A stretch of DNA of 50,796 bases. It comes from a virus. Its lineage: Duplodnaviria; Heunggongvirae; Uroviricota; Caudoviricetes. Where the stretch lies: positions 1-50,796 of IMG/VR virus record IMGVR_UViG_3300023210_000014; one strand, 5' to 3'. Positions 2,560 through 29,068 of the stretch are shown here, piece by piece. The notes below the pieces were generated by a model that was given only the letters and a program-made list of their open reading frames with translations, was not told the DNA's origin and made no database searches. Numbering within the stretch: the stretch's first letter is position 1; each line of letters begins with the position of its first letter. The position numbers were made by a program, and so were the translations under genes.

Positions 2560-2633
2560 CGAGTGTTAGCTTAATGGAAAGCACCAAGTTTGGAACTTGG
2601 GGGATTTCAGTTCAACTCTGAAACATTCGACCA
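2560..2633 (+). tRNA. tRNA-Pro(TGG)
   Basis: Cloverleaf, CCAAG-TTTGGAA-CTTGG, C1-G72, A73, encoded CCA. Confidence 0.9.
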
Positions 2634-2638
2634 AACTT

Positions 2639-2714
2639 GGAGCATTAGTTCAATCGGGAGAACACTGGCCTGTCAAGCCAGAGGCAACGGGATCGAAACC
2701 CGTATGCTCCGCCA
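2639..2714 (+). tRNA. tRNA-Asp(GTC)
   Basis: CTGGC-CTGTCAA-GCCAG, G73, CCA; T-loop ATCGAAA. Confidence 0.9.
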
Positions 2715-2724
2715 AATATTCGAT

Positions 2725-2801
2725 GCCGGCGTATGCTAACTGGCAACGCACTTGGTTTTAGAAACCAAGGATTGTGGGTTCGACTCCCTCCGCCGGTACC
2801 A
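2725..2801 (+). tRNA. tRNA-Leu(TAG), short variable loop
   Basis: TTGGT-TTTAGAA-ACCAA, A73, CCA. Confidence 0.8.
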
Positions 2802-2852
2802 AATCGCGGAGTTTTGAGATTCTCGTTCACAGGTAAAAATCTCACATCTTAT

Positions 2853-2924
2853 GGGCCCAACATATGGGATGAACTTCCGCCTTGCACGCGGGATGAGAGG
2901 GATCGTTACCCTCTGGGTCCACCA
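2853..2924 (+). tRNA. tRNA-Ala(TGC)
   Basis: TCCGC-CTTGCAC-GCGGG, G3:U70, CCA; weak D arm. Confidence 0.8.
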
Positions 2925-2930
2925 AATCAA

Positions 2931-3007
2931 TGCTCCTTGGCGAAGCGGTCTAACGCATCAGGTTTTGATCCTGACATCCGTAGGTTCGAATCCTACAGGA
3001 GCATCCA
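2931..3007 (+). tRNA. tRNA-Gln(TTG)
   Basis: TCAGG-TTTTGAT-CCTGA, U1-A72, CCA. Confidence 0.9.
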
Positions 3008-3127
3008 AATTCACTGGGCCCACGAAATCATATACTTGATCTTAACCACATCGAGCTCTTTGATTTCCGGATTGTCCAGAGGCAAGATTCTCAGTGGGTG
3101 GTCCCTATTGCTTGCCTAAAATATTAT

Positions 3128-3212
3128 GCGTCATGAGGAAGCTGGGAAATCCACCGGGCTGTAAACCCGACCTCTAACGAGTTGCTTGGTTCGATTCCAA
3201 GATGGCGCACCA
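3128..3212 (+). tRNA. tRNA-Tyr(GTA)
   Basis: CTGTAAA anticodon loop, long variable arm, A73, CCA. Confidence 0.9.
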
Positions 3213-3328
3213 AATTAAATCGCTAAATTGCCATAACTGGCAACTTAACGCGCTAAACCTTGGTTAAGGTGACATAACTGGCAACTTAGCAAAAAGGTGA
3301 AAAAAGATCATTTATTTTCTGTTTTTTG

Positions 3329-3357
3329 TTTACAATTAGCAGGGAATAGGATATAAT
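3329..3357 (+). promoter_or_regulatory. sigma70-like promoter inside tRNA array, copy 3
   Basis: TTTACA-N17-TATAAT. Confidence 0.85.
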
Positions 3358-3362
3358 GCATC

Positions 3363-3530
3363 TATGGTTAAGAAGAACATCGGTTCAAGCTAACCAACGA
3401 TCTTTGAAAACGAAATTTTTGATTCTCTTGGATACGCCCACTGGTTTAAACTTCGGTTTGAAGATGAGGGTAACACTGAGAGGTCAAAATCAATCCCTGC
3501 CGGCAAAGGGATATAAAACACCCCGGAACA
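3363..3530 (+). ncRNA. structured ncRNA candidate
   Basis: Directly after promoter; stems 3417-3428/3479-3489, UUCG hairpin, terminal H-type pseudoknot. Confidence 0.45.
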
Positions 3531-3536
3531 AATTTT

Positions 3537-3613
3537 GGGTCATTAACTCATCAGGTTAGAGTATCGCCCTTTTAAGGCGAATGCGCTGGGTTCGAGTCCC
3601 AGATGACCCACCA
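3537..3613 (+). tRNA. tRNA-Lys(TTT)
   Basis: TCGCC-CTTTTAA-GGCGA, CCA. Confidence 0.95.
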
Positions 3614-3619
3614 AATTAT

Positions 3620-3696
3620 GGGTAGTTAGCTCAAATGAGTAGAGCGCGAAGCTGTTAACTTCGGAGATATGAGTTCGAGTCTCATACTGCCCTCCA
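3620..3696 (+). tRNA. tRNA-Asn(GTT)
   Basis: CGAAG-CTGTTAA-CTTCG, CCA. Confidence 0.95.
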
Positions 3697-3701
3697 AAAA
3701 A

Positions 3702-3776
3702 ATAATGTTAGTCCAAAGATTTAAATCTGTTGGAAAGTTTGATCAAATTTTGGTATTCAAAAACCACTAACATTAT
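3702..3776 (+). ncRNA. tRNA-sized cloverleaf RNA without CCA
   Basis: Perfect 11-bp closing stem ATAATGTTAGT/ACTAACATTAT enclosing three hairpins. Confidence 0.45.
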
Positions 3777-3836
3777 GAGTTGGATATTGAATGATCAATG
3801 GTTAGTCCCATCATCGACGTTCAACTCAATTTAAAA

Positions 3837-4240
3837 TTGTAGATGAAGAGCTGCCATTTCTTCGAAGAGTAGAGCCAGCAGAACAGTATGAGAAGTTGAT
3901 AGCTTCCTTCCGATTCTCCAGCGACGCTAGGCGTAGTAGACAGATTCTACAAAGGACAAAATCAAAGAGCGAACCTCTGGGTTTTGTCCGAACCAAATCG
4001 AGAATGAAAATTCTCAACGTTGATGCGTCAATACTGTCCGTGAGAGTATAAACTCACCGGGTAGAAATACTTACAGGGTGTTAACCGCATCCGGCAGGAA
4101 TTGACCGTGAGAGCAATTGAAGGTTGCAAACTTTGATTGAACAACTCTCAAAATATTAATGATGGCCGACGCGCAATTCCCTGTCGGTTCAAAAGCAGAT
4201 TTATAATTCTGTCATGCGGTGAAATACCGAAAGGGCTGCT
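3837..4240 (+). ncRNA. large multi-domain structured ncRNA candidate
   Basis: No + strand ORF; many hairpins, long-range pair 4084-4090/4214-4220 and 7-bp pseudoknot 4097-4103/4174-4180. Confidence 0.55.
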
Positions 4241-4247
4241 AAATTGT

Positions 4248-4325
4248 GCACACGTACTCAAGCCTGGTTAAGAGGCTGATCTGATACGTCAGTAGATGTA
4301 GGTTCGAACCCTACCGTGTGCACCA
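4248..4325 (+). tRNA. tRNA-Ile(GAT)
   Basis: CTGAT-CTGATAC-GTCAG, A73, CCA. Confidence 0.9.
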
Positions 4326-4425
4326 AACGAGTCGGTACGGTCTGAAACAAAACCGTCAATCATTTGAGAACTCGAGATATCTCATTTGGTTGTGTAGGCG
4401 AAATTCCTACTGCCAGCAGAATTGT

Positions 4426-4503
4426 GGCTCCGTGGAGTAATTGGCTAACTCGCCAGACTTTCAATCTGGAGATTTGCGGGTTCGATCCCCGTCGGAGCTA
4501 CCA
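4426..4503 (+). tRNA. tRNA-Glu(TTC)
   Basis: CCAGA-CTTTCAA-TCTGG, CCA. Confidence 0.95.
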
Positions 4504-4618
4504 AAAATTTGAGGGGTTGGTTTGTTGGGCAAGCCCAAACGTGTAAAAGCGACAACCTCTTGAAACAATATAGTGGGCTGACATTCCCCTGCTAAAATAA
4601 TAGAATGTCAAAAATTAT

Positions 4619-4699
4619 GGGTGGTCTGATATGGTATTATCGATGGGAGTTAAGCTGCCCGGTTGGTGAATCACGGTTCGAATCCGTAGCCCTCCACCA
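4619..4699 (+). tRNA. degenerate tRNA-Leu(TAA)
   Basis: D arm, T arm, long variable arm, G37, A73, CCA; anticodon stem needs a bulged G and acceptor has one mismatch. Confidence 0.55.
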
Positions 4700-4850
4700 A
4701 AAAATTGAATTGCTTTCACACTAGTCTCTGACTGCAATCAAGTAAGCGATGCCCCGGGAGGTCCTCATGGGGTAATGGAAACATCATCGCGGTATAAGCC
4801 CGAAAATAGAGGGGACTTGAAACAGAAGTTCTGGAGTACGCTCTGGAATA

Positions 4851-4930
4851 TTGGGAGTGGGAGACACAGGTTCAAATCCTGTATTGCCGACCGTAAGGAT
4901 AGCGATTCGTCTAATGGTAGGATACCCACG
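4851..4930 (+). ncRNA. circularly permuted tRNA-Pro-like gene (3' half then 5' half)
   Basis: TTGGGA-GTGGG-AGAC-T arm-ATTGCCG-A, then CC-GTAA-GG linker, then TAGCGAT-TC-D arm-A-CCCAC; cross-half pairing 6/7 bp (acceptor) and 5/5 bp (anticodon stem). Confidence 0.7.
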
Positions 4931-4937
4931 AGAAACT

Positions 4938-5013
4938 GCCCATATAGCTCAATTGGCTAGAGCAACTGACTTGTAATCAGAAGACCGGGGATCGTTACCT
5001 CGTATGGGCTCCA
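4938..5013 (+). tRNA. tRNA-Thr(TGT)
   Basis: CTTGTAA loop, CCA; T-loop ATCGTTA. Confidence 0.9.
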
Positions 5014-5125
5014 GTTTATTGCAAACCGTATTCAGTCGGTATAAATGGGGTTCATATAAAACCTGACTTGCAATATTTAAAATTGAAGTCGGCCAAAGCG
5101 CTCTATTGAGTCGTGCGGCTAACAG

Positions 5126-5217
5126 GGAACATTGACAGAGTGGAAATGTGCTGGCTTGCTAAGCCATGGCCATCGGTGAGAAACGTTGCATTGGTTCGAA
5201 TCCAATATGTTCCTCCA
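5126..5217 (+). tRNA. tRNA-Ser(GCT)
   Basis: TTGCTAA loop, long variable arm, CCA. Confidence 0.85.
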
Positions 5218-5234
5218 CAAGAAAGGGATTGAAT

Positions 5235-5510
5235 ATGACAATTAAGAATATTTATTTGGTCATACGAGATCAAATGCCACTGAAGAGATTCATTAGAAAT
5301 TTCTTCATCACCAGAAATGCTTGGGGTTTATTCCATGAGAATTCTCACATATCATTTGCTAGTGGTTTAGGTAAAGTGACTTACAATACCAAAGAGACTG
5401 CAATTAAATCTGCAGCTTCGATGAGTAAGAAACATAAGAAACATTTTTCTCCATATAAGTGCCTTCATTGCGATGGTTATCACATTGGGAAAAATAGAGA
5501 TAATAAGTAA
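5235..5510 (+). CDS. basic protein with C-terminal YxCxxCxxxH zinc-binding motif, inside the tRNA array
   Basis: AAGGGA RBS; YKCLHCDGYHIG. Confidence 0.7.
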   Translation: MTIKNIYLVIRDQMPLKRFIRNFFITRNAWGLFHENSHISFASGLGKVTYNTKETAIKSAASMSKKHKKHFSPYKCLHCDGYHIGKNRDNK

Positions 5511-5512
5511 TT

Positions 5513-5615
5513 GAGTATGATGGGGCGCCGATTGGATCGACTGGTCAAAATAAACGTTTGTGCCTGTCCCATGAATTCTGTATTGGATCGGACTAAGGGA
5601 TTCATTTTCATACTC
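5513..5615 (+). ncRNA. branched structured RNA candidate
   Basis: 8-bp closing stem GAGTATGA/TCATACTC with two arms each capped by ATTGGATCG. Confidence 0.4.
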
Positions 5616-5623
5616 TAACAATT

Positions 5624-5696
5624 TGCGGAGAGGGTCGGTACCCCATTTGGTCTCATAAGCCAAACTTACTTGATTCAACTTCAAGCTCCGCAACCA
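5624..5696 (+). tRNA. tRNA-Met(CAT), initiator-like acceptor stem
   Basis: TGCGGAG/CTCCGCA-A-CCA, CTCATAA loop; short D arm. Confidence 0.75.
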
Positions 5697-5702
5697 AATT
5701 TT

Positions 5703-5777
5703 GCGGTATTCGTATAACGGCTATTACCTCAGCCTTCCAAGCTGATGACGTGGGATCGTCCCCCACATACCGCTCCA
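5703..5777 (+). tRNA. tRNA-Gly(TCC)
   Basis: TCAGC-CTTCCAA-GCTGA, U73, CCA; T-loop ATCGTCC. Confidence 0.9.
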
Positions 5778-5831
5778 AATTGATTTACAGTTAATTGCAC
5801 TTTCTGTTGTTAATTGTAAACTGAATATTGT

Positions 5832-5908
5832 GCATCCGTAGTATAAATGGCAATTACAACAGCCTCCAAAACTGTTAGATGTGGGTTCAAATCCTACCGG
5901 GTGTGCCA
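5832..5908 (+). tRNA. tRNA-Trp(CCA)
   Basis: CTCCAAA loop, G73, CCA. Confidence 0.9.
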
Positions 5909-6187
5909 AATATCCACCAGCCATGAGATAAGTGCTGGATGGGATGAGAATTCCATTTGAGGATTCTCCATCGAATTGAAAGTTGCTGTTGCGTTTCCCC
6001 AGTTCGGGCGAAGGATGATAATAGCCTTGAGGGTGTTCATTAAGTTTTTAAGATGAGTGAGCTTACTTCTTTCAATTCAAAATAAAAACGCTTACAAAGG
6101 GAGTATTGAAAACGGTTATCTCCCCGTCTGACGAAACAAAACAAACCTGAGTGGAGTTTGAGGACGTTCTCCACTGTTAAAGATTTT

Positions 6188-6263
6188 GCCGCTTGGGTGT
6201 GAAAGGTACGCACGCAAGAGTGAAGCCCTTGAGGAACAGGTTCAATTCCTGTAGGCGGCGCCA
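6188..6263 (+). tRNA. atypical tRNA-Phe(GAA)
   Basis: Acceptor and T arm intact, GTGAAGC loop, A31-C39 mismatch, no U8. Confidence 0.6.
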
Positions 6264-6406
6264 ATATGTTGAGAGATGACGGTTCGAGCCCGTCTGCTGC
6301 TCCACCACTAATGGATTCAAAGGGTTCTTCGGTTTTGTGGTGAAACTGATTTATTCCAGAGATGAAGTTAAAGCAGTATGGTCTAATGGACTATGACGCT
6401 CATATT
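6264..6406 (+). ncRNA. second circularly permuted tRNA-like gene
   Basis: TTGAG-AGAT-T arm-TGCTGCT-CCACCA, ~65-nt linker, then AGCAGTA-TG-D arm-G-CTCAT; acceptor 7/7 bp and anticodon stem 4/5 bp across halves. Confidence 0.65.
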
Positions 6407-6413
6407 TTATTTT

Positions 6414-6492
6414 GGACGATTGGCCGAGCGGTCGAAGGCACTTCTTTTACATGGAAGTATTACCGTAGGTTCGAATCCTACATCGTCCACCA
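6414..6492 (+). tRNA. tRNA-Val(TAC)
   Basis: CTTCT-TTTACAT-GGAAG, A73, CCA. Confidence 0.85.
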
Positions 6493-6520
6493 AGATCGAG
6501 AACACAAGTTCTCAACAAGT

Positions 6521-6596
6521 GTGTCCATAGCTCAATTGGTTAGAGCCCCCGCCTGTGAAGCGGAAGACGAGGATTCAAATTCCTCTGGACACCCCA
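6521..6596 (+). tRNA. tRNA-His(GTG)
   Basis: CTGTGAA loop, C73, CCA; no genomic G-1. Confidence 0.9.
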
Positions 6597-6649
6597 ATCA
6601 TATTGACAGAAGAGTTACAAATTCGTAGTTTTTCTGTCAATATAAAAAT

Positions 6650-6735
6650 GGAGAGTACCGCCGAGGTGGCAAATCGGGTTTGAACCCCGAGGACACGTGC
6701 AAACGTGTGGGTTTCGATTACTCTATTCTCTTCCA
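6650..6735 (+). tRNA. tRNA-Ser(TGA)
   Basis: TCGGG-TTTGAAC-CCCGA, long variable arm, CCA. Confidence 0.85.
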
Positions 6736-6760
6736 CACCTGCCCAAACAAAAACTGAAGG

Positions 6761-6803
6761 GTGGTCTGATAGTTCGCTGTGAAGCGATGGGTTGACCACA
6801 CCA
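6761..6803 (+). ncRNA. armless tRNA-like minihelix ending in ACCA
   Basis: GTGGTC/GACCAC-A-CCA enclosing TCGC-TGTGAA-GCGA hairpin. Confidence 0.4.
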
Positions 6804-6809
6804 AATCGT

Positions 6810-6885
6810 ATCGGGATAGCATAGATGGATACGCACCACGCTCATAACGTGGATCAGGTGGGATCGTTACCCACTCCCGATACCA
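6810..6885 (+). tRNA. tRNA-Met/Ile2(CAT)
   Basis: CCACG-CTCATAA-CGTGG, A73, CCA; T-loop ATCGTTA. Confidence 0.85.
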
Positions 6886-27317: not shown

Positions 27318-28441
27318 CTTGGAAAACAAATAAACCATATAAAATTTTTGCCGATATGAAAACACTAGAACAAGGGGCTTTAGATCAATTTACTGAGGCC
27401 ATGGATATCCCGTGGGTAATTACCGGGGCTTTGATGCCAGATGCTCACGTTGGATATACTTTACCTATTGGGGGAGTTATTGCTACAAAAGACATGATTG
27501 TGCCAAGTTACTGCGGTGTTGATATTGGGTGTGGAATGTGTGCAGCAAAATTTGACGGATTAAAACGTGAAGATATTGAAGATCGTAAAGATGAAATATT
27601 TGATGGAATATATCGTGCAATTCCAGTTGGATTCAATCACCACAAAAAAGATGAAAAATGGTTGACACCAGCAATGAAGAATTACAAGATTTATTCGAAC
27701 ACTGATATTATGGCTCGTGCAATTGAATTGCGAAATCCATTGAAACAAATTGGGACACTTGGTGGAGGCAACCATTTCATAGAAATAGGTTATGATGAAG
27801 ATGATGATGTGTGGGCAATCTTACATTCGGGTTCTCGTGGATTTGGATATTACATTGCGAATGAATATGTTAAACTTGCGCATCCAGAAGGTAAAGTCAA
27901 AGATGGTCATTATGGGTTCCACATTGATTCAAAGAATGGTGAAGATTATTATTGTGATATGAACATTGCGTTGGACTTTGCATTGGCAAATAGAATGCAC
28001 ATGTTGGCCGCAATCTCTGGTGTTATTGGATGTGGATATATTGAAGATTCGTTCATTAATAGAAATCACAACCATGCCGAATTGGCTCACAATATGATCA
28101 TCCACCGTAAAGGTGCAACTCATGCTGAAGAAGGAATGATGGGAGTTATTCCGGGTAACATGCGTGACGGTTCTTTTATTGTCAAAGGTAAAGGAAATCC
28201 AGACGCACTTTGGTCCAGTTCTCATGGAGCAGGAAGAGTGTTAGGTCGTAAGGCTGCTAAGAAAGCTTTGGATATGGAAACATTCAAAAACGATATGGTC
28301 GGCATCAAGGCAAAGGTTGTAAAAGATACTTTGGATGAATCTGCCGGAGCATACAAGGATATTTTTGAGGTTATGGAACTTCAAAAGGACTTGGTTGAAA
28401 TTATTCACCACGTCAAACCTCTAATAAATATAAAAGCATAA
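27314..28441 (+). CDS. rtcB: RtcB-family RNA-splicing/repair ligase
   Basis: MPDAHVG, GVDIGCGM, GTLGGGNHFIE, HSGSRG, NRNHN, HRKGA, IPGNM, SSSHGAGR, DESAGAYK. Confidence 0.95.
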   Translation: MTWKTNKPYKIFADMKTLEQGALDQFTEAMDIPWVITGALMPDAHVGYTLPIGGVIATKDMIVPSYCGVDIGCGMCAAKFDGLKREDIEDRKDEIFDGIYRAIPVGFNHHKKDEKWLTPAMKNYKIYSNTDIMARAIELRNPLKQIGTLGGGNHFIEIGYDEDDDVWAILHSGSRGFGYYIANEYVKLAHPEGKVKDGHYGFHIDSKNGEDYYCDMNIALDFALANRMHMLAAISGVIGCGYIEDSFINRNHNHAELAHNMIIHRKGATHAEEGMMGVIPGNMRDGSFIVKGKGNPDALWSSSHGAGRVLGRKAAKKALDMETFKNDMVGIKAKVVKDTLDESAGAYKDIFEVMELQKDLVEIIHHVKPLINIKA

Positions 28442-28492
28442 AACCATTGATCAATATAAAATTTTACATATTTATTATTGAAGGAGAAATCA

Positions 28493-29068
28493 ATGAAAAT
28501 ATATAAAACAACAAATTTGATAAATGGTAAAATTTATGTAGGTCAAACGCGGAGAGAATTTAGAAATTATCTCGGGTCTGGTACACTATTGAAACGGGCA
28601 ATTGAAAAATACGGTAAAGAAAATTTCGAAAGCGTTATCTTAAGTTCATGTTCAACCCAAATCGAACTTAATAAAATGGAACGATATTGGATCAGTGAAT
28701 TAAACTCAACCAATTTGGCCATTGGGTACAATTTGGAAACAGGAGGAAATTCGCATTCAAACCATTCACATGGATTGAAAGGGAAAACCCGTCCTGCGTT
28801 TTCTAAAGAATGGAAGAATAAATTATCACAGTCTCATATTGGAAAGAAAGCTTCAGACGAGACTAAACGAAAGATGAGTGAATCACAAAAAGTGTCTTAC
28901 GCAAATGGAACTAGAAAAAAGAGAATCCCAAATGATCAATCAGGTTCAAAAAACCCCAATGCTAAAGAGATAATAATTGATGGAATTAAATTTGCGACAA
29001 TACAAGAAGCAATTGATCACCTTGGAATAACGAGATCGAAATTGAAGTGGAAAATCCACAAAGGATAA
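28493..29068 (+). mobile_element. free-standing GIY-YIG homing endonuclease with NUMOD-type repeats
   Basis: IYKTTNLINGKIYVGQT, YLGSG, E.YWI, GYNL; SDETKRKMSES, GSKNPNAK. Confidence 0.88.

What the first reader, a model, noticed from the sequence alone, without database searches (positions are those of the whole stretch)
4851..4930. Circularly permuted tRNA-Pro-like gene with a GNRA-capped acceptor stem
Seen: the 3' half of a tRNA comes first (TT-TGG-GA Pro loop, GTGGG 4857-4861, AGAC, ACAGG-TTCAAAT-CCTGT, ATTGCCG 4883-4889, A73). A 5' half follows (TAGCGAT 4900-4906, TC, GTCT-AATGGTA-GGAT, A, CCCAC 4925-4929). The halves pair with canonical spacing: anticodon stem 5/5, acceptor 6/7. The linker CC-GTAA-GG caps the acceptor helix with a GNRA tetraloop, so the RNA is opened at the anticodon instead of the acceptor end. 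Known: permuted tRNA genes are described in some algae and Thermofilum, and bacterial YrlA Y RNAs use the same T-arm/closed-acceptor/D-arm order. Inference: either a permuted phage tRNA matured by ligation, or a non-chargeable tRNA mimic/decoy. No Ro60 gene is present in this window.
Basis: partly seen in the sequence, partly recalled or inferred. Interest (0 to 1): 0.92.

Follow-up and report, generated by a model that had tools for sequence, protein, structure and literature searches.

The report
Phage Y-RNA-like tRNA mimic
The "back-to-front tRNA" is real, but it is most likely a non-chargeable tRNA look-alike of the YrlA/Y-RNA kind, already known from bacteria and phages, here sitting in a marine T4-like phage's tRNA gene array with no partner protein gene on the recovered DNA.

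Summary
At 4857-4929 a T arm, a loop-closed 7-bp acceptor helix and a D arm lie in permuted order inside a 5-bp outer stem. Joined in silico, the halves are called tRNA-Pro(UGG); 0 of 1000 shuffles are.

It is probably not a tRNA gene. The order V loop, T arm, closed acceptor, D arm is that of YrlA Y RNAs. A covariance model built from three phage elements lying 0.8-4.6 kb from Ro60 (TROVE) genes scores it 54.7 bits (next best in the genome 20.7). In 25 such elements all seven closed-acceptor pairs covary, and UUCG or GNRA caps recur. A relative from a hydrothermal-vent metagenome keeps the element with two compensatory T-stem changes.

It differs from typical members. It gets no Rfam YrlA hit. 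It has no long basal stem, because tRNA-Thr starts 8 nt downstream. The 114.8-kb contig, a fragment, has no Ro60, DUF2828/DUF7788 or DUF7873 gene. It does carry RtcB, an Rnl2-like ligase and RlaP.

This scan has noted the same kind of element in at least 743 other genomes. I rate it a new variant of a known kind, of moderate interest. Expression, RNA ends and partner are untested.

The parts
4828..4849 (+). Leader hairpin: 9 bp (three of them G-U) capped by the UACG tetraloop 4837-4840. The GAGUAC...UCUGG letters resemble the G(A/U)UUAC(A/U)UC motif upstream of other phage members.
   Evidence: Predicted in constrained and unconstrained folds. Positions 4816-4851 are identical in the vent-metagenome relative, where 4829-4851 occurs twice. 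Motif comparison from the family flanks.
4850..4856 (+). It is open, not closed by a stem on its 5' side.
   Evidence: Sequence. The relative has one T fewer here.
4857..4861 (+). 5' strand of the outer stem (GUGGG), equivalent to the 3' strand of a tRNA anticodon stem. Pairs 5/5 with 4925-4929.
   Evidence: In the family this helix is only 68% paired.
4862..4865 (+). Four-base variable loop AGAC (family: mostly AGAU, AAAU, CGAU).
4866..4882 (+). T arm ACAGG-UUCAAAU-CCUGU.
   Evidence: Rfam tRNA partial match, 15.6 bits. The relative has GCUGG...CCAGC, two compensatory pairs. Family covariation.
4883..4906 (+). Closed acceptor-like helix: AUUGCCG / UAGCGAU (6 of 7 paired), an A-A mismatch, a CC/GG extension and the GUAA (GNRA) tetraloop 4893-4896.
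   Evidence: In 25 family members all 7 pairs show changes on both sides, 91.5% of cells are paired, and caps are UUCG or GNRA in 8.
4907..4924 (+). U8-C9, D arm GUCU-AAUGGUA-GGAU, and A26. This is the same D arm as the 'GTCT-type' phage elements beside Ro60 genes.
4925..4929 (+). 3' strand of the outer stem (CCCAC).
4930..4937 (+). Eight-base tail GAGAAACU that ends where tRNA-Thr begins (4938). The RNase P cut of tRNA-Thr would make the 3' end. The tail could pair with AGUUCU 4827-4832, in competition with the leader hairpin.
   Evidence: tRNA-Thr coordinates. The pairing was read from the sequence and is inferred.
4745..4790 (+). Upstream hairpin that may belong to the same RNA. The stem is GCGAUG / CAUCGC.
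   Evidence: Two compensatory double changes in the relative: 4748 G>C with 4788 C>G, and 4749 A>U with 4787 U>A. Folds.
4801..4804 (+). CGAA in a predicted single-stranded stretch, unchanged in the relative. It is the core of the Ro60-binding motif of Y RNAs, but the full GNCGAAN0-1G motif is not matched.
   Evidence: Sequence, and the motif as defined in PMC4201824 and PMC12135203.
4578..4606 (+). Promoter-like site (CTGACA, 17 bases, TAGAAT). No terminator-like site follows on the + strand before 6694.
   Evidence: These are consensus matches only.

Best explanation
The element is the gene for a small non-coding RNA that mimics tRNA, of the YrlA / Y-RNA-like class. It is not a gene for a chargeable tRNA.

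What the sequence and comparisons show: a T arm, a loop-closed acceptor-like helix and a D arm, in YrlA order, enclosed by a short outer stem. It is homologous to a large family of phage elements, many of which lie beside Ro60 (TROVE) or Ro-like genes.

What is inferred:
- It is transcribed with the tRNA array, and its 3' end is made by the RNase P cut at tRNA-Thr.
- It folds into a tRNA-like L shape whose acceptor end is sealed by a GNRA cap, so it cannot be aminoacylated.
- It serves as the RNA subunit or platform of a Ro-type RNA surveillance and repair particle. The protein would be encoded on the missing part of the phage genome or by the host. The particle would act alongside the phage's RtcB, Rnl2-like ligase and RlaP.
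- Because its acceptor helix has 7 bp followed by A-C-C, RNase P may also cut it at 4899/4900, as happens to M. smegmatis YrlA.
For: - Topology and tRNA signature.
- YrlA has the order V, T arm, closed acceptor stem-loop, D arm (PMC4201824; Rfam RF02553 consensus).
- Rfam YrlA matches two of my scanner's hits in other phages: L017 at 40.5 bits over the full model length, and L115 at 27.8 bits.
- Model R1 was built from three phage elements 0.8-4.6 kb from TROVE genes on the same strand. It scores the window element 54.7 bits, E about 1e-17, against 20.7 bits for the next best in the genome.
- Family alignment of 25 elements: 88.9% of cells paired against 63.6% in shuffles; covariation score 0.635 against at most 0.146 with slid partners; all 7 closed-acceptor pairs covary. 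UUCG or GNRA caps occur in 8 of 25.
- Partner genes lie beside family members: TROVE in 8 records, DUF2828+DUF7788, DUF7873 and RtcB in one each. TROVE is in 0 of 8 control records without an element.
- The vent-metagenome relative keeps the element with two compensatory T-stem pairs and an identical 36-nt leader.
- RNA-repair genes on the contig: RtcB at 27386-28435, an RNA ligase, and RlaP at genome positions 94494-95315.
- In Salmonella, YrlA is encoded in the rsr-yrlBA-rtcBA operon (PMC7790460).
- A phage Ro60 binds two phage Y-like RNAs and the host PNPase (PMC12135203).
Against: - No RF02553 match even at E<=10 in a 141-nt search.
- The exact GNCGAAN0-1G motif is absent.
- There is no room for the long 5'/3' basal stem seen in Ro60-adjacent members, because tRNA-Thr starts 8 nt downstream.
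- No TROVE, DUF2828, DUF7788 or DUF7873 gene is found on the 114.8-kb contig.
- The R1 score is inflated by ascertainment. The training loci were fetched with a T-loop and D-arm pattern taken from this element, and ordinary tandem-tRNA junctions with that D arm reach 30-45 bits.
- The 15-48 Levitt pair would be A-C here.
- No transcript, RNA ends or binding data exist.
Confidence: 0.65

Rival explanations
1. It is a partner-independent tRNA decoy. The sealed tRNA look-alike is made in quantity from the tRNA operon. It soaks up or misdirects host factors that recognise the tRNA elbow or acceptor arm, such as tRNA-targeting defence nucleases, modification enzymes or RNase P. No Ro-type protein is needed.
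For: - No partner gene is found on 114.8 kb.
- There is no basal stem for Ro binding.
- Two complete phage records with a family member lack TROVE. G013 has the element 0.65 kb upstream of RtcB, and G010 has it beside DUF7873.
- The element is embedded in the tRNA array, so tRNA processing enzymes would release it.
Against: - The contig is a fragment of a T4-like genome. Both ends cut genes and CheckV estimates 50% completeness, so absence of a partner is not shown.
- The closest relatives by model score lie beside Ro60 genes.
- An open anticodon end makes it a poor decoy for anticodon nucleases.
Confidence: 0.18
2. It is a true permuted or split tRNA gene. RNase P cuts at 4899/4900, the 3' trailer is trimmed to A-C-C and completed to CCA, and the two halves stay paired. 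The phage RtcB or Rnl2 then seals the anticodon loop to give a working tRNA-Pro(UGG).
For: - The swapped halves are called tRNA-Pro(tgg).
- The acceptor has 7 bp followed by A-C-C.
- M. smegmatis YrlA, which has a 7-bp stem, is cut by RNase P and receives CCA in vivo (PMC4201824).
- The phage has RtcB, an RNA ligase, phosphoesterases and RlaP.
Against: - Family members close the acceptor directly with UUCG or GNRA loops, without discriminator or CCA.
- The anticodon-stem equivalent is only 68% paired across the family.
- In Ro60-adjacent members the flanks run on into long basal stems, not an anticodon loop.
- Nothing known would make the exact ends at positions 31/32 and 38/39: no bulge-helix-bulge motif is seen and no ribozyme is found by Rfam.
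- In the relative, position 33 would be A.
- A canonical tRNA-Pro(UGG) is already present at 2560-2633.
Confidence: 0.07
3. It is a dead remnant: two tandem tRNA-Pro copies that lost the outer halves, with no function.
For: The spacing between the halves (about 9 nt) is like the spacing between neighbouring tRNAs in this array. Y-like RNAs are thought to derive from tRNAs (PMC4201824).
Against: - The same topology recurs in many unrelated phages with covarying stems.
- The relative keeps the element with compensatory changes and an invariant leader.
- Both break points fall at the same tRNA position.
- A stable tetraloop caps the junction.
- A second element of the same topology lies in the same array.
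Confidence: 0.03

Closest known systems
YrlA (Y RNA-like A; Rfam RF02553), the tRNA-mimicking Y RNA bound by Ro60/Rsr in bacteria and mycobacteriophages (Chen et al. 2014, PMC4201824; Wang et al. 2018, bioRxiv 10.1101/312249)
   Same: The order is the same: variable region, T arm, loop-closed acceptor-like stem, D arm. It has tRNA-like T and D loops able to form the elbow and no free CCA end. It is opened at the anticodon side. It is linked in genomes with RtcB-type RNA repair genes.
   Different: There is no RF02553 match and no exact GNCGAAN0-1G motif. There is no long basal stem and no Ro60 gene within reach on the contig. The acceptor helix is longer (7 bp plus 2 bp plus a GNRA cap). It lies inside a tRNA array with tRNA-Thr 8 nt downstream.
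Phage Y-like RNAs beside phage Ro60: Yrl1/Yrl2 of Thermus phage phiLo (PMC12135203), and the suggestion that some 'tRNA genes' next to the Ro60-like gp130 of phage Bas63 are Y RNAs (bioRxiv 10.1101/2024.10.10.617714)
   Same: It is phage-encoded and lies next to or inside tRNA gene clusters. In the related contig it appears in two tandem copies, as in the Ro60-bearing phage records, which carry two elements each.
   Different: Those RNAs sit directly beside their Ro60 gene. phiLo Ro60 was shown to bind its Yrls and the host PNPase. Here no such protein gene is seen and nothing has been tested.
Permuted tRNA genes of Cyanidioschyzon merolae and other algae, and of Thermofilum
   Same: The 3' half is encoded upstream of the 5' half of one cloverleaf.
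   Different: Those genes are matured through a bulge-helix-bulge cut, circularisation and removal of the linker, giving a normal chargeable tRNA. Here no such motif or enzyme is apparent, and the family conserves the linker as a stable cap.
Two-piece tmRNA from circularly permuted ssrA genes (alpha-proteobacteria and others; from my own knowledge)
   Same: It is a bacterial-type precedent for a T arm and 3' acceptor strand encoded ahead of the 5' acceptor strand.
   Different: There is no tag reading frame or pseudoknots. ARAGORN finds no tmRNA. Only 8 nt follow the element.
tRNA-mimic RNAs next to DUF7873 or DUF2828/DUF7788 genes, noted many times by this scan and seen here in L048 and L116
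   Same: The permuted head is the same, and the setting in phage tRNA clusters is the same. The related contig seems to carry two heads about 208 nt apart.
   Different: Neither protein family is on this contig. The leader and upstream domain have no detectable likeness to those loci.

Membership tests
YrlA (RF02553) | Order: variable region, T arm, closed acceptor-like stem-loop, D arm, all enclosed by a stem | tested here: met
   Compared with the RF02553 consensus structure shown and with the text of PMC4201824.
YrlA (RF02553) | Score at or above Rfam's gathering threshold (69 bits) | tested here: not met
   No YrlA match at E<=10 in searches of 631 nt and 141 nt. The L037 element, which one search places beside a Ro60 gene, also got no RF02553 match, and L017 reached only 40.5 bits. 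The model is therefore insensitive to phage members.
YrlA (RF02553) | GNCGAAN0-1G motif near the 5' end (the likely Ro60 contact) | tested here: inconclusive
   There is no exact match. GCCCGAA lies at 4798-4804, and its CGAA core is unchanged in the relative.
YrlA (RF02553) | Encoded within about 4 kb of a Ro60 (TROVE) gene on the same strand | tested here: not met
   No TROVE by six-frame HMM search or by tblastn with four phage Ro60 proteins anywhere on the contig. The contig starts only 4.85 kb upstream of the element and is a fragment.
YrlA (RF02553) | Binding by Ro60/Rsr; pseudouridine 55 and dihydrouridine made by TruB and DusA | not testable with these tools
   Needs RNA from infected cells or in vitro assays.
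Phage 'GTCT-type' Y-like RNAs beside Ro60 genes (defined here) | Match to covariance model R1, built from the elements in L037, L120 and L064 | tested here: met
   54.7 bits, E about 1e-17. Other elements without an overlapping tRNA call score 46-84 bits, and ordinary tRNA junctions score 45 bits or less. Caveat: the training loci were fetched with a pattern taken from this element.
Phage 'GTCT-type' Y-like RNAs beside Ro60 genes (defined here) | Long imperfect basal stem formed by the 5' and 3' flanks | tested here: not met
   The flanks of Ro60-adjacent members pair over 6-30 bp. Here 8 nt are followed by tRNA-Thr, so at most a 6-bp pairing is possible, and it competes with the leader hairpin.
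Permuted tRNA genes (algae, Thermofilum) | Swapped halves give a canonical cloverleaf with a 7-base anticodon loop | tested here: met
   ARAGORN calls tRNA-Pro(tgg) on the swapped sequence, and 0 of 1000 shuffles are called.
Permuted tRNA genes (algae, Thermofilum) | Bulge-helix-bulge motif at the paired termini, and a removable linker carrying the discriminator | tested here: not met
   The flanks give only a 3-bp CUC/GAG pairing with a 13-nt bulge (read). Across the family the linker is a conserved tetraloop cap with no discriminator.
Two-piece (permuted) tmRNA | Tag reading frame and pseudoknots after the 5' acceptor strand | tested here: not met
   ARAGORN tmRNA search is negative. Only 8 nt lie before tRNA-Thr.

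The most novel reading that the evidence does not exclude
The element is a stripped-down Y-like RNA that has lost the Ro-binding basal stem and works without Ro60. tRNA-processing enzymes release it from the tRNA operon. RNase P may cut it and it may receive CCA. It would then act directly with the phage's RtcB / Rnl2 / RlaP repair enzymes, or against a host tRNA-directed defence. That would make it a Ro-independent tRNA-mimic cofactor or decoy carried in phage tRNA arrays.
Probability: 0.18. Interest if true: 0.7.

Novelty: new variant of a known kind. Interest (0 to 1): 0.4.

Why it matters
Phage tRNA arrays are usually annotated only for tRNAs. This case shows that gaps in them can hold sealed tRNA look-alikes that standard tools miss: ARAGORN, Rfam tRNA and Rfam YrlA are all silent here.

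They lay beside at least four different neighbours: Ro60, DUF2828/DUF7788, DUF7873 and RtcB. This suggests a modular family of RNA-protein systems for RNA repair or counter-defence.

For this phage the value is mostly in annotation. The element should not be counted as a tRNA-Pro or as evidence for tRNA splicing in phages. If a Ro-free mode of action were shown, it would bear on the long-open question of what the tRNA-like domain of Y RNAs does.

Tried and rejected
- **Near relatives in phage GenBank records:** only short tRNA matches were found.
- **Fixed-spacing pattern in IMG/VR:** no match.
- **Strict pattern in JGI metagenomes:** five ordinary tandem-tRNA junctions and one element (L134); no orthologue.
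- **Leader pattern in IMG/VR:** one chance match inside a coding region (L142).
- **Relatives via the upstream phosphoesterase:** the contigs keep the Pro-Asp-Leu tRNA order but end before the element's position.
- **Relatives via the 91-aa protein downstream:** L143 and L144 are identical to the window. More distant homologues are not syntenic, and one had no DNA available.
- **blastn-short and nhmmer of the leader and upstream domain against all fetched loci:** nothing.
- **Free-energy test:** the 91-nt fold is no better than shuffles (z = -0.45), which is uninformative for tRNA-like RNAs.
- **Circular closure of the contig:** rejected. The RNA ligase frame does not continue into the contig end, and both ends cut genes.
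- **Hidden Ro-like protein:** the 401-aa orphan near RlaP has distant homologues carrying PF14885 (which I recall as the glycosyl-hydrolase-like family GHL15), not Ro-like domains. Pfam and PHROG scans of about 60 ORFs found none.
- **P0092 (phosphoesterase N-terminus joined to DUF7788):** probably a chimera; not pursued.
- **RNA evidence:** no RNA holder was listed among the public runs. The single read-laying run used DNA contigs only.
- **GGGGACTTG at 4811-4819 as the family's 5' motif:** dropped, because it is not conserved in the relative.

Full report
**Setting.** The window is the first 50.8 kb of a 114,796-bp viral contig. The contig comes from seawater metagenomes, and relatives occur in hydrothermal-vent samples. 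It is a T4-like phage, with a gp20 portal, gp23 capsid protein and gp18-type sheath. It is a fragment. The first ORF is an RNA ligase lacking about 90 N-terminal profile positions. The last ORF runs off the end, and the two ends do not join. CheckV estimates 50% completeness. A tRNA array runs from 2560 to 6885 on the + strand: 17 ARAGORN calls, plus some non-canonical tRNAs that default settings miss. The finding lies between tRNA-Glu (4426-4503) and tRNA-Thr (4938-5013).

**Observation.** The only corrections are minor. The seven bases before GTGGG read ATTGGGA. The 6/7 acceptor pairs include two G-U pairs, alongside one A-C mismatch.

- In the native order neither ARAGORN nor Rfam calls a gene. 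Rfam sees only the T arm, at 15.6 bits.
- With the halves swapped, ARAGORN calls tRNA-Pro(tgg). None of 1000 shuffles of the same 71-mer is called.
- No other tRNA of the array offers a 5' half that fits both stems as well.
- A scanner I wrote for this topology (T arm, 3' acceptor strand, linker, 5' acceptor strand, D arm, closing stem) finds only this element (score 21) and one more at 6269-6403 (score 20) in the whole contig.
- Forty simulated genomes gave no hit of 20 or more.

The thing is real and is not chance.

**What it resembles.** The order variable loop, T arm, closed acceptor stem-loop, D arm is the defining layout of YrlA. YrlA is the tRNA-mimicking Y RNA bound by the bacterial Ro60 orthologue Rsr (PMC4201824; RF02553 consensus).

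To find relatives I scanned IMG/VR with a loose pattern taken from the element's T loop and D arm. I then ran my scanner on the loci that came back.

- About twenty further permuted elements appeared that overlap no ARAGORN tRNA. Their acceptor helices are closed by very short loops, several of them UUCG or GNRA tetraloops.
- Rfam's YrlA model matches two of them below threshold: L017 at 40.5 bits over the full model, and L115 at 27.8 bits.
- Six-frame searches found TROVE (Ro60) genes in the records of L017, L037, L066, L051, L120, L064 and L010. A Pfam scan of the ORF beside the L012 element found one more.
- Where located, the element lies 0.2-4.6 kb from the Ro60 gene on the same strand. 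In the four Ro60 loci fetched there are two elements each.
- Eight control records whose fetched tRNA-array loci held no such element had no TROVE gene.
- Other members sit beside a DUF2828+DUF7788 protein (L116), a DUF7873 protein (L048, in a complete 176-kb record without TROVE) or RtcB (L084, in a complete 45.5-kb record without TROVE).

**Membership of the window element.** I built a covariance model (R1) from three elements whose records carry Ro60 genes 0.8-4.6 kb away (L037, L120, L064). The window sequence was left out.

- R1 scores 4857-4929 at 54.7 bits, E about 1e-17. The next best match in the whole contig is 20.7 bits, an ordinary tRNA junction.
- This score is partly built in. 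The training loci were fetched with a pattern derived from this element, and ordinary tandem tRNAs with the same D arm reach 30-45 bits. Elements with no overlapping tRNA call score 46-84 bits, and the window element lies within that range.
- Beyond the pattern, it shares the 4-base variable loop (AGAC against AGAU), U8-C9, and GGAU-A/G.
- Upstream it shares GAGUAC..UCUGG, which resembles the G(A/U)UUAC(A/U)UC motif of the family.

**Covariation.** In the model-guided alignment of 25 elements, 88.9% of cells pair against 63.6% in shuffles. The covariation score is 0.635, against at most 0.146 when partners are slid. All seven pairs of the closed acceptor helix change on both sides, with 91.5% paired. 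Three of five T-stem pairs covary. The outer stem is only 68% paired. The alignment is fitted to the model, which favours it, but the slid controls share that bias.

Eight of the 25 acceptor caps are UUCG or GNRA.

**Orthologue.** Laying contigs of four other runs on 4500-5100 showed one relative, a 1637-nt contig from a vent run.

- It matches 4618-4851 with 26 differences and 6 gaps, but is identical over 4816-4851.
- It continues with GGGAAGGGGAGACGCTGGTTCAAATCCAGC. This is the same element with two compensatory T-stem pairs (A-U to G-C and A-U to U-A).
- The 23 bases 4829-4851 occur twice in that contig, about 208 nt apart. The relative therefore probably has two heads in tandem.
- An upstream hairpin (4745-4790) also shows two compensatory double changes.

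This argues against decay. Only 30 bases of the orthologous head could be read.

**How this element departs from typical members.**

- It gets no RF02553 match even at E<=10.
- The exact GNCGAAN0-1G motif is missing. Only a conserved CGAA lies at 4801-4804.
- Ro60-adjacent members have flanks that pair into long imperfect basal stems. Here tRNA-Thr begins 8 nt after the element.
- The leader instead folds on itself into a 9-bp hairpin capped by UACG (4828-4849).
- The acceptor helix is extended by an A-A mismatch, two C-G pairs and the GUAA loop.
- The contig has no TROVE, DUF2828, DUF7788 or DUF7873 gene.
- An orphan 401-aa ORF near RlaP has distant homologues carrying PF14885, which I recall as the glycosyl-hydrolase-like family GHL15.
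- The contig does carry RtcB (27386-28435), an Rnl2-like ligase and a phosphoesterase at the array's edge, and an RlaP nucleotidyltransferase at genome positions 94494-95315. This is the RNA-repair gene set that the literature links with Ro/TROVE and its tRNA-like partner (PMC7824862; PMC7790460).

**Likely mechanism.** Shown: a conserved, structured, sealed tRNA look-alike that is homologous to phage elements next to Ro60 genes. The rest is inferred.

- Transcription would be with the array. A promoter-like site lies at 4578-4606 and no + strand terminator-like site is seen before 6694.
- The RNase P cut at tRNA-Thr would set the 3' end.
- The RNA would fold into an L shape. It cannot be charged while the cap is intact.
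- It would act as the RNA part of a Ro-type particle that steers exonucleases or repair enzymes. In Thermus phage phiLo, Ro60 binds two phage Y-like RNAs and the host PNPase (PMC12135203). In phage Bas63, a Ro60-like protein encoded just upstream of the tRNA genes counters the ppl defence (bioRxiv 10.1101/2024.10.10.617714).
- M. smegmatis YrlA has a 7-bp acceptor stem and is cut by RNase P and given CCA in vivo. The same could happen here at 4899/4900.

**Rivals.**

- A true permuted tRNA sealed by RtcB or Rnl2 is not excluded but is unlikely. The reasons are the family's tetraloop caps, the weak outer stem, the lack of any route to exact anticodon-loop ends, and a normal tRNA-Pro(UGG) already present at 2560-2633.
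- A Ro-free decoy or cofactor is the most interesting reading still open. Two complete phage records carry family members without TROVE.
- A dead duplication remnant is disfavoured by covariation and conservation.

**Comparison with earlier notes of this scan.** The same design has been noted in at least 743 other genomes, often beside Ro60-like, DUF2828 or DUF7873 genes. I tested those leads here. All three proteins are absent from this contig. RlaP and RtcB are present. The partner pairings are reproduced in L116, L048 and L012.

**Verdict.** The element is best read as an orphan variant of the YrlA / phage Y-like tRNA mimics, not as a new kind of tRNA gene. Interest is moderate (0.4). Expression, RNA ends and the partner protein remain untested.

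Noticed in passing
window 6269-6403 (+): A second permuted tRNA-like element lies right after tRNA-Phe and 10 nt before tRNA-Val. It has a T arm, TGCTGCT / AGCAGTA pairing 7/7, a 70-nt linker containing a CACCAC...GTGGTG hairpin, a 3-bp D stem and an outer stem paired 4/5. Model R1 sees only its T arm (16.8 bits). Similar long-linker elements lie in contigs of related phages (L005 8999-9090, L001 4777-4879).
   Followed up: partly
window 4619-4699 (+): A tRNA-like gene with a long variable arm, an encoded CCA and an irregular anticodon loop around TTAA. ARAGORN calls it only with relaxed settings, as 'tRNA-?'. It is preceded by a promoter-like site and is identical in the vent-metagenome relative. 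Related contigs carry a tRNA with anticodon TTA (L002 11759-11834). It may be an ochre-suppressor-type tRNA or another mimic.
   Followed up: partly
window 2853-2924 and about 6650-6735 (+): Non-canonical tRNAs missed by default ARAGORN and Rfam: a tRNA-Ala(tgc) with a reduced D arm, syntenic with tRNA-Ala in relatives, and a tRNA-Ser(tga)-like gene.
   Followed up: partly
window 5235-5507 (+): A 91-aa protein with a CxxC..H motif has no Pfam family. It has at least 348 homologues, and the 120 best listed are at 61-82% identity, some on phage-size contigs up to 431 kb. That is unusually strong conservation for a small phage ORF. Here it sits inside the tRNA array.
   Followed up: partly
window 4745-4790 (+): A hairpin upstream of the element shows two compensatory double substitutions in the vent relative. 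The region 4704-4815 may be a 5' domain of the same RNA or a separate small RNA.
   Followed up: partly
genome 93311-95315 (L150 5312-7316); window 27386-29068: An RlaP-type nucleotidyltransferase lies next to a Band-7/SPFH protein. RtcB is followed directly by a GIY-YIG homing-endonuclease-like ORF.
   Followed up: partly
L084 11530-13013: In a 45.5-kb phage record rated 99% complete and without TROVE, a family member lies 0.65 kb upstream of an RtcB gene.
   Followed up: no
L152 84-647 (protein P0092): A 187-aa product joins the first 60 residues of the array-flanking phosphoesterase (52% identity) to a DUF7788 (Ro-like vWA) C-terminus. It is either an assembly chimera or a sign that these genes are neighbours in some relative.
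   Followed up: no
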